Part shown: positions 2,213 to 3,631 of the stretch, piece by piece
Numbering within the stretch: the first letter of the stretch is position 1
How the letters are laid out: every line of letters begins with the position of its first letter
Source: a virus
Length of the DNA: 8,586 nucleotides
UHGV virus genome: UHGV-1973422
Direction: 5' to 3' (one strand)
The notes under the pieces: model-generated
Seen by the model: the letters and a program-made list of their open reading frames with translations, nothing else
Database searches by the model: none
What the model was told of the DNA's origin: nothing
Position numbers and translations under genes: made by a program

Positions 2213-2635
2213 ATGAGTAGAAATAACGAAACAAGCGGCGTTGAACTGGTTGTCGTGGGCGTATTTGCTTTCTGTCTGGCAGTTGTTGCCTGGCTAATGA
2301 AAACTTTCGATGTTGAATGGCAAACAGCACTAGAAACTGCGCCTGGCCTGATAGTCTGGTTGCTTGTTGTCGGTGCGGGGATCTTTTTCGGGATCAAAAT
2401 GGAAACTGGTCTTGTTCGCTGGGGTGCTCCACTTGCGATCGCCCTTCTGATTCCGGTATTCAAACCAATTCTTAAGGAAGCAGCCGGAGTTCGTGAAATG
2501 GGCGGGTTAGTTTTCGATGATATGGTTTCGTGGTACGGAACTGGCTGGGGAATGTCGCTGATGTTCTTCGGGATTCTTATCGTCGGATACGGCCTACTTT
2601 ATTGGTGGCACAGAAGAAAGTCATATTACTGGTAA
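2213..2635 (+). CDS. Small integral membrane protein (about 140 aa, 4 predicted TM helices), function unknown
   Basis: ATG 2213 with AGGA 8 nt upstream. Hydrophobic stretches VELVVVGVFAFCLAVVAWLM, GLIVWLLVVGAGIFFGI, WGAPLAIALLIPVF and GWGMSLMFFGILIVGYGLLYWW. Track ORF 2066..2635 is an upstream extension that overlaps the RHH gene and both hairpins, so the internal start is preferred. Confidence 0.6.
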   Translation: MSRNNETSGVELVVVGVFAFCLAVVAWLMKTFDVEWQTALETAPGLIVWLLVVGAGIFFGIKMETGLVRWGAPLAIALLIPVFKPILKEAAGVREMGGLVFDDMVSWYGTGWGMSLMFFGILIVGYGLLYWWHRRKSYYW

Positions 2636-2746
2636 CTCCGCCGCGGGAAACCACGGTAAAGTTCGGGTGTCACTGAACCCCGAACCGCAAGCGGTTAAAT
2701 AGCAATCAACTATAGAGAGTAAGTCAAAACATATAAGGGTTAAATA

Positions 2747-3214
2747 ATGACAGTATCTCTTGGCGATGTGTTTGGTGGTTTGGCGTTTTTTCTCTCAATC
2801 TATGCAACAATTAAAACCGTAAAGTTCAATGAAAGACAAAAAGCGTTAATAGAAGCGCAAGAAAGGTTAACGAATCTCCAACTTACTAAAGAAAAAAATG
2901 AGTTGGAAAGTTCAAAGAAAGCTGATATTAGTGCAAGCATGGTCTCTGTAGGAAATAGAGAATATAAACTAAGAGTTATTAATAAAGGGAAGGTTTCTGC
3001 GAAAAATGTAAGAATAGAGTTTCCCGATAATAATTCACCAGTATCAATGAGTGACGTTAAAAGCAAATTTCCGCTTGAGTATCTCGCGACAGATCAACCA
3101 GTCGATCTCATTGCGTCAGGAGAGTTAGGTCGAGCAAGGAAATTTACTGTAAGACTAATGTGGGATGACGATTTCAAGGATGATAATGAAATTGTTTTAC
3201 ATATAACATATTGA
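2747..3214 (+). CDS. Hypothetical protein, 155 aa: N-terminal TM anchor, charged coiled-coil-like segment, beta-rich C-terminal domain
   Basis: AAGGG Shine-Dalgarno 6 nt upstream of ATG 2747. N-terminal LGDVFGGLAFFLSIYATIKTV is hydrophobic, followed by a K/E-rich heptad-like stretch. AT-rich codon usage distinct from the phage core. Confidence 0.6.
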   Translation: MTVSLGDVFGGLAFFLSIYATIKTVKFNERQKALIEAQERLTNLQLTKEKNELESSKKADISASMVSVGNREYKLRVINKGKVSAKNVRIEFPDNNSPVSMSDVKSKFPLEYLATDQPVDLIASGELGRARKFTVRLMWDDDFKDDNEIVLHITY

Positions 3215-3259
3215 TTTAAATACACTTTATATCGAAGCAAAACAAGTAGAGGAGTAAGG

Positions 3260-3631
3260 ATGAAAAATCAACTTTATAGCCGTCAAGGAATATACGACAT
3301 AATCAGAAGCCACTATTTAAGAAACTTTCCATATACGATTCAATTTGAAGCGCTTAATGCAATAAATGAACACATTAGCCTTATAATTGATAGCGCATCA
3401 ATACAAAAAAATGAAAGTGGTGAGTACGTATTTATCAATAATAATCCTAATATGGAAGTTGATGACCCATTTGAAAGCACAGAGAGAAATCTTGCTGCTT
3501 ATCTATCAAAGTCTAGTGGTGTTGAAGCGTTATTCCAAGATGTGAACGCATTACAAAAATGGTTGCTCCAATATGGATTTATCCATGGTGGTATAGCGAC
3601 TGAAAAAATGCTGGTTACGAATAAACTATAA
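3260..3631 (+). CDS. Hypothetical soluble protein, 123 aa
   Basis: Strong GAGGAG Shine-Dalgarno 7 nt upstream of ATG 3260. AT-rich. The stop TAA (3629-3631) lies directly before dif-like site A. Confidence 0.6.
   Translation: MKNQLYSRQGIYDIIRSHYLRNFPYTIQFEALNAINEHISLIIDSASIQKNESGEYVFINNNPNMEVDDPFESTERNLAAYLSKSSGVEALFQDVNALQKWLLQYGFIHGGIATEKMLVTNKL

What the first reader, a model, noticed from the sequence alone, without database searches (positions are those of the whole stretch)
2213..3631. Antisense three-gene cargo block of unknown function in the position of the Ff intergenic region
Three consecutive plus-strand ORFs with credible Shine-Dalgarno sites lie antisense to every phage gene, between the RHH terminator and the dif-like palindrome: a 4-TM membrane protein (2213..2635), a TM-anchored coiled-coil plus beta-domain protein (2747..3214) and a 123-aa soluble protein (3260..3631). 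The last two are visibly AT-rich compared with the phage core, suggesting separate acquisition. None resembles any Ff protein I know. A membrane-anchored module in a filamentous phage is a candidate for superinfection exclusion, abortive infection or anti-phage defence, or a host-interaction factor; which one is not determinable from sequence.
Basis: inference. Interest (0 to 1): 0.8.

Follow-up and report, generated by a model that had tools for sequence, protein, structure and literature searches.

The report
Truncated defence-type cargo in filamentous prophage
The three genes are real but are not one unit: the first is a conserved membrane-protein gene of an E. coli filamentous prophage, and the other two are what is left of a mobile cassette of a probable anti-phage type, sitting in a swappable cargo slot next to the phage's integration site.

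Summary
The window is a dif-integrating filamentous prophage of E. coli. It is 100% identical to strain HUM3355, where it lies in tandem copies next to hipA. The three + strand ORFs exist as described and are under purifying selection (dN/dS 0.09-0.22).

They are not one cargo block. ORF1 (four transmembrane segments, 2213-2635) is backbone. It keeps the same position in 33 related inovirus loci, including two in which only 10 nt separate it from attP.

The stretch from about 2689 to 3633 is a cargo slot with at least 12 alternative contents. These include an AbiJ-like protein, a Pycsar-type TIR protein and a DpnII/MboI-type nuclease-domain protein.

ORF2 and ORF3 are a truncated cassette. Elsewhere ORF2 homologues (about 1,070 clusters at 50% identity, no Pfam or PADLOC model) always follow a small ECs_2282-family zinc-ribbon gene. 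Here a clean 253-bp deletion has removed that gene.

The third position of the cassette varies: ORF3, an AbiJ-type Abi_C protein, a HEPN_AbiV protein, other proteins, or nothing. Homologues lie beside IetAS and AbiE. The same cassettes also ride ISNCY elements that end in the same dif-like 73-nt sequence.

The most likely role is an abortive-infection or defence-type module. Whether this truncated copy still works is unknown. Cargo hotspots of this kind are already published for Vibrio filamentous prophages.

The parts
1942..2124 (+). 60-aa putative regulator, first gene of the leftward (lysogeny-side) transcription unit. Related phages carry a 142-150-aa HTH_3 repressor here instead.
   Evidence: ORF. 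It matches only PHROG 2503 of unknown function. It is identical in the sister prophages. An HTH_3 protein replaces it in MS8345 and Salmonella. A promoter-like site lies at 1881-1908. The RHH fold is not verified.
2213..2635 (+). ORF1: 140-aa inner-membrane protein with four transmembrane segments. It is a conserved backbone gene of this inovirus group, not cargo. Its function is unknown.
   Evidence: Four hydrophobic segments. 49 homologue clusters across Enterobacterales, mean column identity 84%, with invariant motifs. Same position in 33 loci whatever the cargo, and only 10 nt from attP in L060 and L061. dN/dS 0.09-0.14. No Pfam, NCBIfam, PADLOC or PDB match. Matches PHROG 4174, function unknown.
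2641..2688 (.). 48-nt hairpin-rich element, 95.8% identical to part of the 'major intergenic region' of phage If1. It marks the left edge of the variable slot in this sub-group.
   Evidence: Match to If1 positions 5058-5105. Conserved in the window, UR21 and VL46 although their cargo differs; sequences diverge just after it. Found in only about 30 E. coli genomes, 56 of the 57 places being chromosomal. The fold is not exceptional, z = -1.3. Function unknown.
2689..3633 (.). Cargo slot (hotspot) between the backbone and attP. Here it holds the truncated cassette.
   Evidence: Left and right breakpoints come from alignments A3 and A4. The distance from the ORF1 stop to attP ranges from 10 to about 1,230 nt, with at least 12 different contents.
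2712..2746 (+). Scar of the deleted zinc-ribbon gene (ECs_2282 family). The cassette leader up to about 2730 is joined to the last 16 or so nt of the lost gene (2731-2746), which still supply the Shine-Dalgarno site for ORF2.
   Evidence: Pairwise alignment with the intact Raoultella cassette shows one clean 253-nt gap that runs from the zinc-ribbon gene's start codon to 19 nt before its stop (sequences).
2747..3214 (+). ORF2: 155 aa, with an N-terminal membrane anchor (N-out, C-in), a long helix and a cytoplasmic Ig-like (CARDB-like) beta-sandwich. It belongs to a large uncharacterised family that is normally paired with the zinc-ribbon protein.
3260..3631 (+). ORF3: 123-aa soluble protein in the variable third position of the cassette, restricted to Enterobacteriaceae.
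   Evidence: Only 14 homologue clusters. In every context examined (Raoultella, Salmonella, a metagenome contig and ColV plasmids) an ORF3 homologue follows an ORF2 homologue. The AlphaFold2 model is unusable, pLDDT 49.5. No family or PDB match.
3634..3727 (.). attP, made of three parts: dif-like site 1 (3634-3660, GGTTCGCATAA-TGACG-TTATGCTAAAG), a GC-rich hairpin (3662-3693, followed by TTTTC and so terminator-like for the + strand operon), and an inverted dif-like site 2 (3697-3727). It folds into a CTX-phi-type forked hairpin on single-stranded DNA.
   Evidence: Fold of -33.2 kcal/mol, z = -9.4. Invariant across all related elements. In the last copy of the HUM3355 array the prophage-host junction falls after ...TTATGCGCAC at 3726, next to hipA. 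A pair of inverted XerC/XerD sites is described for YpfPhi in PMC4266046.

Best explanation
The region is the leftward arm of a dif-integrating inovirus of the CUS-1/YpfPhi kind. This arm is probably expressed in the lysogen. It has two layers.

(1) ORF1 is a conserved inner-membrane protein of the phage backbone with four transmembrane segments. It is encoded just downstream of the regulator gene. Its role is unknown. I infer, weakly, an exclusion or immunity function expressed in the lysogen.

(2) Between ORF1 and attP lies a cargo slot in which different cassettes replace one another. In this phage the slot holds ORF2 and ORF3. These are the distal two genes of a mobile three-gene cassette: a zinc-ribbon protein, a membrane-anchored Ig-like protein, and a variable third protein. 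A 253-bp deletion has removed the zinc-ribbon gene.

At family level the cassette is most likely an abortive-infection or defence-type conflict module. In the proposed mechanism, the cytoplasmic zinc-ribbon protein and the membrane-tethered Ig-like protein form a conserved, translationally coupled sensing or regulatory pair, and the third position carries the output. That output is a HEPN protein of the AbiV type or an AbiJ-type C-terminal domain (Pfam Abi_C) in some versions, ORF3 in this one, and nothing in the two-gene versions, where the membrane protein itself would have to act.

Cassettes probably move in and out through recombination among elements stacked at dif, because the same cassettes occur on ISNCY-family elements that end in the same dif-like 73-nt sequence.

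Shown here: the gene structure, ORF1 as backbone, the hotspot, the deletion, the conserved pairing with the zinc-ribbon gene, and the neighbourhoods. Inferred: the defence function, the division of labour among the three proteins, the exchange mechanism, and whether the truncated copy is still active.
For: Identity of the element:
- Rep (Phage_CRI) and G5P are Pfam hits in this window; RefSeq annotates Zot, secretin and attachment proteins, and Zot, Secretin and DUF5455 are Pfam hits in the Salmonella relative.
- The prophage sits in tandem copies ending beside hipA.
- It has a folded attP.

ORF1 is backbone:
- It occupies the same position in sister prophages that carry four different cargos.
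- It is present in 22 IMG/VR inovirus contigs, and in L060 and L061 the slot is empty.

The slot is a hotspot. Alternative contents include:
- AbiJ_NTD4 + DUF7014 (STM4504 family; PADLOC PDC-S32);
- a DpnII-MboI nuclease-domain protein (PADLOC Aga_Helical-REase, 1e-34) with DUF6953;
- a CAP12/Pycsar-type TIR protein (PADLOC TIR effector and PycTIR models).

The cassette:
- Intact zinc-ribbon + ORF2 + ORF3 versions occur in a Salmonella inovirus, in Raoultella, and on 80 E. coli records, mostly ColV plasmids.
- The deletion scar is shown.
- A zinc-ribbon gene lies immediately upstream in every ORF2-family context examined, with overlapping or near-overlapping stop and start codons.
- All four zinc-ribbon proteins that were scanned pass NCBIfam NF047912, and the two that were scanned against PADLOC hit candidate PDC-M14A at 3e-8 and 5e-8, plus HEC-08 and PDC-S64.
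- Third genes seen: Abi_C, which hits PADLOC AbiJ at 6e-22; HEPN_AbiV; a 405-aa protein; a 73-aa protein; or none.
- Neighbours: IetAS directly upstream on an integrase island, and AbiEii, PIN and a reverse transcriptase.
- Purifying selection.

ISNCY elements carry an STM4504 protein, a SIR2 protein or this cassette in front of the same 73-nt end.

An accessory-gene hotspot enriched for defence genes is published for Vibrio filamentous prophages (PMC11630473).
Against: No experiment links the ORF2 family, ORF3 or ORF1 to any phenotype.

ORF1, ORF2 and ORF3 match no PADLOC, Pfam or NCBIfam model. The defence reading therefore rests on association, drawn from about a dozen neighbourhoods.

The beta-sandwich fold of ORF2 says nothing about activity. 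ORF3 could not be modelled.

This copy lacks the gene that is otherwise always present, so it may be inactive.

Several alternative cargos have no recognisable function, so the slot is not exclusively defensive. Prophage hotspots can also carry counter-defence or addiction genes.
Confidence: 0.6

Rival explanations
1. ORF2 and ORF3 are an inert remnant. After the obligatory zinc-ribbon partner was lost the cassette stopped working, and it persists only because it hitchhikes next to attP on a successful prophage.
For: The zinc-ribbon gene is present in every other context and is cleanly deleted here. The truncated form is rare, found in 15 of 5,426 complete E. coli genomes. At 99% or more identity the copies are too alike to test for selection since the deletion.
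Against: Both ORFs stay intact, and ORF2 keeps its Shine-Dalgarno site, in all listed copies. The truncated block has spread between two different inovirus backbones, at 99.1% identity against 80% for gII/gV. It has also reached Salmonella. The deletion removes one gene precisely and leaves the downstream expression signals in place.
Confidence: 0.25
2. The arm, ORF1 above all and possibly ORF2/ORF3, serves superinfection exclusion or competition against other filamentous phages and dif-integrating elements. It would act at the inner membrane, for example by blocking TolQRA-dependent entry or assembly, rather than defend against lytic phages.
For: ORF1 is a conserved membrane protein in the regulator-side transcription unit of a temperate inovirus. 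Resident YpfPhi gives partial protection against superinfection by a mechanism that has not been assigned (PMC4266046). Elements compete for dif and stack there in tandem.
Against: ORF2-family pairs are widespread outside inoviruses. They occur on integrase islands, in marine bacteria and next to uvrB, often with HEPN Abi-type partners. That argues for a general function. No homology to any known exclusion protein was found.
Confidence: 0.15
3. The cassette is a toxin-antitoxin-like addiction module that stabilises elements at dif or on plasmids. The zinc-ribbon protein would be the antitoxin and the membrane protein the toxin.
For: The genes are small and translationally coupled, and they sit on plasmids, insertion sequences and prophages. 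There is a very weak resemblance to the zinc-ribbon antitoxin MqsA (TIGR03830, E about 1e-3, below its cut-off). A TacAT system is a neighbour in Raoultella.
Against: An intact ORF2 is tolerated after the supposed antitoxin was deleted. This argues against a simple scheme in which the zinc-ribbon protein neutralises ORF2. No toxin or antitoxin family matches.
Confidence: 0.08
4. The genes are virulence or host-interaction factors of extraintestinal pathogenic E. coli, by analogy with the toxin genes of CTX-phi.
For: The block occurs in CUS-1-like prophages of ExPEC and APEC strains and on ColV virulence plasmids. CUS-1 and YpfPhi contribute modestly to fitness in vivo (PMC4266046).
Against: None of the proteins is predicted to be secreted; the domain of ORF2 is predicted to be cytoplasmic. 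Homologues occur in environmental and marine bacteria. The alternatives found in the same slot are defence-type genes.
Confidence: 0.04

Closest known systems
Accessory-gene (defence) hotspot of filamentous and tailless prophages in Vibrionaceae (ISME J 2024, PMC11630473)
   Same: These are small prophages integrated at dif with one defined variable locus. The locus is flanked by a transcriptional regulator and is enriched for complete or partial defence systems among many unannotated genes. The window shows the same layout: regulator, ORF1, variable slot, attP.
   Different: The host and phage lineage differ (Enterobacterales, CUS-1/If1-like). Here the slot is bounded exactly by attP site 1. 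It shares its cassettes with ISNCY elements. The particular cassette (zinc-ribbon + Ig-like membrane protein) is not a recognised system.
CUS-1 (E. coli O18:K1:H7) and YpfPhi (Yersinia pestis) dif-integrating inoviruses
   Same: Same overall organisation, tandem integration at dif, and inverted XerC/XerD sites. The ORFs next to attL have unknown function and differ between the two phages (PMC4266046). A CUS-1-like backbone in strain MS8345 carries the identical ORF1-ORF2-ORF3-attP block.
   Different: The structural genes of the window phage are of another type (DUF5455 pVI and an If1/IKe-like pIV). I could not read the original CUS-1 paper, so the correspondence to its orf1 and orf1a is not established.
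AbiJ and AbiV abortive-infection proteins (HEPN effectors)
   Same: In some versions of the cassette the third gene has an AbiJ-type C-terminal domain (Pfam Abi_C; PADLOC AbiJ at 6e-22) or a HEPN_AbiV domain. An AbiJ_NTD4 protein is an alternative occupant of the same slot.
   Different: ORF3 has no detectable HEPN domain and no Rx4-6H motif on inspection. AbiJ and AbiV act as single proteins, without a zinc-ribbon and membrane-protein pair.
PADLOC candidate systems PDC-M14 (gene A), HEC-08 and PDC-S64
   Same: The zinc-ribbon partner of ORF2 homologues matches PDC-M14A (3e-8 and 5e-8). More weakly, it matches the zinc-ribbon region of HEC-08 and PDC-S64.
   Different: These are untested candidates. 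ORF2 and ORF3 match none of their components. The matching gene is the one missing from this window.
Lambda cI-rexA-rexB (exclusion genes expressed with the repressor); comparison from established knowledge, not tested here
   Same: A membrane protein with four transmembrane segments (RexB there, ORF1 here) is encoded with the lysogeny regulator and would be expressed in the lysogen.
   Different: There is no sequence similarity, no RexA-like partner is conserved with ORF1, and ORF1 has no known phenotype.
Xer-site-associated gene modules and IS1202-group (ISNCY) insertion sequences that target XerC/D sites; comparison from my own knowledge of the literature, not checked here
   Same: Cargo lies directly beside a XerC/XerD-type site and recurs on plasmids and chromosomes next to ISNCY transposases.
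   Different: Only one flanking dif-like site is evident. Movement by Xer recombination or by the insertion sequence is inferred, not shown.

Membership tests
dif-integrating inovirus (CTX-phi / YpfPhi / CUS-1 type) | Inovirus core genes: rolling-circle Rep (gII), ssDNA-binding protein, Zot-like pI, secretin pIV, and coat and adsorption proteins | tested here: met
   Phage_CRI + G2P_X_C at 9e-70 and Putative_G5P at 3e-51. RefSeq annotates Zot, secretin, DUF5455, attachment protein, major coat protein and G7P.
dif-integrating inovirus (CTX-phi / YpfPhi / CUS-1 type) | No integrase; attP made of two inverted dif-like sites that fold on ssDNA; tandem integration at chromosomal dif | tested here: met
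   No integrase ORF is recognisable among the ORFs, though not every ORF was scanned against a family library. The fold is -33.2 kcal/mol, z = -9.4. About 2.3 tandem copies end next to hipA. The junction is shown. Dependence on XerCD was not tested.
Prophage accessory-gene / defence hotspot | Conserved flanks with mutually exclusive variable content, including empty alleles | tested here: met
   33 loci, slot length 10 to about 1,230 nt, at least 12 contents.
Prophage accessory-gene / defence hotspot | Alternative alleles include recognised defence genes | tested here: met
   AbiJ_NTD4/STM4504; a CAP12/Pycsar-type TIR protein and a DpnII-MboI nuclease-domain protein. About half of the alleles remain unannotated.
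Prophage accessory-gene / defence hotspot | The cargo protects the lysogen against phage infection | not testable with these tools
   Needs phage challenge experiments.
Zinc-ribbon (ECs_2282 family) + ORF2-like two-gene operon | An ECs_2282-family zinc-ribbon gene immediately upstream and translationally coupled | tested here: not met
   Present in all other contexts examined. Removed here by a 253-bp deletion. The window therefore holds a truncated derivative, not a complete member.
Zinc-ribbon (ECs_2282 family) + ORF2-like two-gene operon | A protein of about 155 aa with an N-terminal anchor, a long helix and an Ig-like domain that matches the family profile | tested here: met
   ORF2 seeded the profile. 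The search found 1,067 clusters of the same length and architecture. Model; topology.
Known or candidate defence systems in PADLOC-DB v2 | A significant HMM match of ORF1, ORF2 or ORF3 to a system component | tested here: not met
   No hit for ORF1 or ORF3. ORF2 has only a 36-residue match to PDC-S57 at 3e-4 in its anchor and helix region. None of 114 family members has a real match.
Type II toxin-antitoxin module | A toxin that needs a cognate antitoxin encoded next to it | tested here: inconclusive
   No toxin or antitoxin family matches. An intact ORF2 is tolerated without the zinc-ribbon gene, which argues against that protein being its antitoxin. An ORF2/ORF3 pairing cannot be excluded.
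Ff-type morphogenesis or replication proteins | Homology of ORF1-3 to gI-gX products | tested here: not met
   No Pfam match. The PHROG matches are to unknown-function families only. tblastn of ORF1 against 50,697 phage records found nothing.
Holin / lysis protein | A match to a holin family | tested here: not met
   ORF2 matches only PHROG 1350 (holin) at E = 0.16, which is not significant.

The most novel reading that the evidence does not exclude
The pair formed by an ECs_2282-type zinc-ribbon protein and a membrane-tethered Ig-like protein (about 1,070 clusters at 50% identity, no Pfam or PADLOC model for the larger protein) could be a widespread, undescribed anti-phage sensing module. It would work with interchangeable outputs: AbiJ- or AbiV-type Abi domains, ORF3, other proteins, or the membrane protein alone. 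In addition, the position immediately 5' of a dif-like site could be a shared docking point through which such cassettes pass between inoviruses, ISNCY-family insertion sequences, plasmids and the chromosomal terminus.
Probability: 0.3. Interest if true: 0.7.

Novelty: new member of a known kind. Interest (0 to 1): 0.5.

Why it matters
The result replaces 'three unknown genes' with a structured picture of the accessory arm of CUS-1/YpfPhi-type prophages. These prophages are found in extraintestinal pathogenic E. coli, Salmonella and relatives.

It identifies three things:
- a conserved lysogeny-side membrane protein of unknown role (ORF1);
- a precisely bounded cargo slot next to attP that samples defence genes;
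- a large, unannotated two-gene family that is a reasonable candidate for a new abortive-infection system.

It also shows that the same cassettes sit on ISNCY elements and ColV virulence plasmids in front of the same dif-like end. This suggests a route by which small defence cassettes circulate around Xer sites.

The specific copy in this window is probably the least informative member, because it has lost the conserved partner gene. The intact relatives named in the report are the ones to test.

Tried and rejected
- Family libraries. Pfam, NCBIfam and PADLOC gave nothing significant for ORF1-3. PHROGs gave only unknown-function families.
- PDB sequence searches with profiles of all three proteins gave nothing credible. 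The DARPin hits for ORF3 (best E = 0.015) and the arrestin hits for ORF2 (E above 0.5) are not convincing.
- The AFDB library was not available.
- The ORF3 structure prediction failed, pLDDT 49.5, so no fold search was attempted.
- tblastn of ORF1 against phage records found no match.
- The scan of viral contigs for ORF2 relatives returned only the two identical contigs, and the broad alignment was too diverse to give search patterns.
- hhalign of the ORF2 family against the 369-aa cargo protein of L057 gave 22% probability. The two share only a CARDB-like 'NxGxxxAxNV' motif, so I did not count it as homology.
- Search for an Ff-type plus-strand nick site. The only formal hit (3310-3326, - strand, 3 mismatches) lies inside ORF3, which also occurs on plasmids, so it is probably chance. 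If1 has no hit. The replication origin was not located.
- The If1-like element does not fold exceptionally, z = -1.3. The scan found no canonical terminator between ORF1 and ORF2.
- The original CUS-1 paper (PMC135385) is not held. No paper mentions PDC-M14 or ECs_2282.
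Full report
**What the window is.** Pfam identifies two inovirus core genes on the - strand: gV (391-708) and gII (720-1814). RefSeq annotation of the identical record names four more: gIV secretin (4495-5862), gI/Zot (5777-6871), gVI (6872-7216) and gIII (7213-8577). The 1900-4500 stretch that was searched is 100% identical to the chromosome of E. coli HUM3355 and 99.7% identical to strain F11. In HUM3355 the element forms about 2.3 head-to-tail copies. The last, partial copy ends just after ORF3 and abuts hipA, next to which the chromosomal dif site lies, as the dif-like junction suggests.

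Region 3631-3730 holds two inverted dif-like sites around a GC-rich hairpin. As single-stranded DNA it folds at -33.2 kcal/mol, z = -9.4. This is the CTX-phi/YpfPhi style of attachment site described in PMC4266046.

**The observation.**
- The three + strand ORFs are at the stated coordinates and have usable Shine-Dalgarno sites. RefSeq annotates them the same way.
- ORF1 has four hydrophobic segments.
- ORF2 is modelled (pLDDT 76) as a long N-terminal helix, residues 5-56, followed by a beta-sandwich.
- The first 20 or so residues of ORF2 are only borderline hydrophobic in this copy. In 114 family members the segment is clearly an anchor: median Kyte-Doolittle score 2.10, no basic residues before it and a median of three after it. 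The helix and sandwich should therefore be cytoplasmic.
- ORF3 is soluble.
- ORF2 and ORF3 are AT-rich (35.5% and 33.3% GC). ORF1 is 47.8% and the window 41%.
- dN/dS against homologues with well-separated synonymous distances is 0.09-0.22 for all three, so they are real genes.

**ORF1 is backbone, not cargo.** Sister prophages in strains WL297, UR21 and VL46 are 98-100% identical in protein sequence across the phage core. Each has ORF1 at the same place and length, but something different between ORF1 and attP.

I located the ORF1 stop codon and attP site 1 in 33 ORF1-bearing loci from E. coli, Salmonella, Klebsiella, Rosenbergiella, Izhakiella, Phytobacter and IMG/VR contigs. The distance between them ranges from 10 nt (empty slot; L060, L061) to about 1,230 nt.

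ORF1 homologues (49 clusters, Enterobacterales only) are very conserved: mean column identity is 84%, with invariant motifs such as PLAIALLIPVFKP and WYGTGWGM. ORF1 always follows the regulator gene. That gene is either the 60-aa ORF seen here or an HTH_3 repressor of about 148 aa. No library or PDB search says what ORF1 does.

**The slot is a cargo hotspot.** Its right edge is exact: all elements become alignable at TTGGTTCGCA..., which is attP site 1. In this sub-group its left edge lies just after a 48-nt element that is 95.8% identical to part of the If1 major intergenic region.

Contents seen in the slot:
- this ORF2+ORF3 pair;
- the full three-gene cassette;
- a divergent two-gene version;
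- an AbiJ_NTD4 + DUF7014 protein (NCBIfam STM4504/CBY_0614; PADLOC PDC-S32);
- a protein with a DpnII-MboI nuclease domain (PADLOC Aga_Helical-REase, 1e-34) plus DUF6953;
- a protein with a CAP12/Pycsar-type TIR domain;
- several unannotated proteins, some of them membrane proteins;
- nothing at all.

An accessory locus of this kind, flanked by a regulator and enriched for defence systems, has been published for filamentous prophages of Vibrionaceae (PMC11630473). The phenomenon itself is therefore not new.

**ORF2 and ORF3 are a truncated cassette.** By word-indexed search ORF2 has only 22 close clusters. A profile search finds 1,067 representative clusters, nearly all 145-160 aa long. ORF3 has 14 clusters, all from Enterobacteriaceae.

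In Raoultella, in a Salmonella inovirus, in a metagenome contig and on 80 E. coli records (mostly ColV-type plasmids), ORF2 and ORF3 homologues are preceded by an 88-89-aa gene. Its stop codon overlaps or abuts the ORF2 start. This gene encodes a CPxCG...CxxCG zinc ribbon, followed by a helix and a conserved KKAFKGxKNI(R/K)(I/V)(K/R) tail. The four copies that were scanned all pass NCBIfam NF047912, the 'ECs_2282 family putative zinc-binding protein'.

A zinc-ribbon gene is immediately upstream in every more distant context I could inspect: L008/L022 (Alcaligenaceae and metagenomes), L027/L030/L032 (inoviruses), and L033, L034, L037, L039, L070, L071, L072 and L073.

In the window the gene is gone. 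Alignment with the Raoultella cassette shows one clean 253-nt gap. The cassette leader is kept up to AAAAC, and the last 16-19 nt of the lost gene are kept (ATATAAGGGTTAAATA before the ATG). Those nucleotides now serve as the ORF2 ribosome-binding site.

All 15 complete E. coli genomes that carry the 99%-or-better version span this junction. The whole block 2114-3753 (ORF1 to attP) is 99.1% identical in a different backbone, the CUS-1-like prophage of MS8345. There gII/gV are only 80% identical and the structural genes do not align at all. The truncated form has therefore spread by recombination after the deletion.

**What the cassette probably does.** The third position varies:
- ORF3;
- a 405-aa protein;
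- a 272-aa Abi_C protein that hits PADLOC AbiJ at 6e-22;
- a 215-aa HEPN_AbiV protein;
- a 73-aa protein;
- nothing, in the two-gene inovirus versions, where attP follows directly.

These are documented. Neighbours include IetAS immediately upstream on an integrase/AlpA island (PADLOC IetA 1e-80, IetS 8e-51). They also include AbiEii, a PIN-domain protein and an HTH + reverse-transcriptase pair. The two zinc-ribbon proteins that were scanned match the PADLOC candidate PDC-M14A (3e-8 and 5e-8) and, more weakly, zinc-ribbon regions of HEC-08 and PDC-S64.

Taken together with the defence-type alternatives in the same slot, this points to a conflict or abortive-infection module. In that reading a conserved pair (zinc-ribbon protein plus membrane-tethered Ig-like protein) works with an exchangeable output protein. 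This is inference from association. ORF2-family proteins have no PADLOC model, the fold is a generic Ig-like sandwich, and ORF3 could not be modelled.

One constraint follows from the deletion. An intact ORF2 is tolerated without the zinc-ribbon protein, so that protein is unlikely to be an antitoxin that holds ORF2 in check. Whether ORF2+ORF3 retain any activity cannot be decided from sequence.

**Link to ISNCY elements.** The 73 nt made up of attP site 1 and the hairpin (3632-3705) recur at about 94% identity in roughly 776 E. coli genomes, including 406 places on plasmids. In the cases inspected they lie at the end of an ISNCY-family transposase element. Its cargo, between the transposase gene and the 73 nt, is again variable: the zinc-ribbon + ORF2 + ORF3 cassette (ColV plasmid and chromosome), an STM4504/AbiJ-like protein (ColV plasmids), or a SIR2-family protein at the chromosomal dif locus next to hipA. 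ISKpn21-type elements carrying DUF6904 lie beside these cassettes.

The IS-borne cassette even keeps a diverged copy of the If1-like element upstream. Both kinds of element stack at dif. Recombination within such arrays is therefore a plausible route for cassette exchange, but this is inferred, not shown.

**Verdict.** The accessory nature, the separate acquisition of ORF2/ORF3 and a defence-type role are the best reading. The unit is mis-drawn, because ORF1 is backbone, and the cargo here is an incomplete copy of a larger cassette.

As a kind of feature (a defence-enriched cargo hotspot in a filamentous prophage) it is a new member of a known kind. The underlying two-gene family is uncharacterised and worth testing in its intact forms.

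Noticed in passing
window 3632-3705; loci L025, L026, L064-L067: The 73 nt of attP site 1 plus its hairpin recur at about 94% identity in roughly 776 E. coli genomes, with 406 places on plasmids. In the cases inspected they lie at the end of ISNCY-family transposase elements. The cargo of these elements in front of the 73 nt is also variable and defence-like: a SIR2 protein next to hipA, an STM4504/AbiJ-like protein on ColV plasmids, or the zinc-ribbon + ORF2 + ORF3 cassette.
   Followed up: partly
window 2641-2688: A 48-nt hairpin-rich element is 95.8% identical to part of the 'major intergenic region' of phage If1 (positions 5058-5105). It is conserved in sister prophages that carry different cargo. 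It is absent from the Salmonella, L027 and empty-slot relatives, and it is present in diverged form upstream of the IS-borne cassette. Its function is unknown; it could be an origin, packaging or terminator element.
   Followed up: partly
window 2140-2185 (+ strand): The hairpin downstream of the 60-aa ORF (AACGTGCAG...CTGCACGTT) is followed by CACGTTCTTTATTGTG. From memory, this resembles the Ff gene II nick site (GTTCTTTAATAGTGG), but it lies on the strand antisense to the phage genes. A mismatch-only search did not recover it because it differs by an indel. The replication origin of this phage was not located.
   Followed up: partly
window 3766-3999 (-) and 4117-4425 (-): Two conserved backbone ORFs of unknown function lie between attP and gIV: a 77-aa protein with CxxC...CxxC (probably zinc-binding) and a 102-aa protein. 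They are identical in all three sister prophages (WL297, UR21, VL46) compared (PHROGs 5435 and 4115). They may correspond to the unassigned attR-side ORFs described for YpfPhi and CUS-1.
   Followed up: no
window 2114-3753 compared with L002 (E. coli MS8345): The whole ORF1-to-attP block is 99.1% identical between two inoviruses. Their gII/gV regions are only 80% identical and their structural genes do not align. The two phages also use different regulators (a 60-aa ORF versus a 148-aa HTH_3 protein). This indicates recent modular exchange of the left arm.
   Followed up: yes
L027 (JARKOR010000214.1): A contig labelled as a 'Candidatus Nanosynbacter' metagenome-assembled genome carries an inovirus whose proteins are 96-100% identical to those of this E. 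coli prophage (phage core plus ORF1). This is almost certainly a binning contaminant.
   Followed up: no
[not shown]
   Followed up: partly
L013 (Raoultella) 1500-7500: ISKpn21-like units (a transposase gene plus a DUF6904 gene) are repeated in tandem directly upstream of the cassette. This looks like stacking of elements at one Xer-type site.
   Followed up: no
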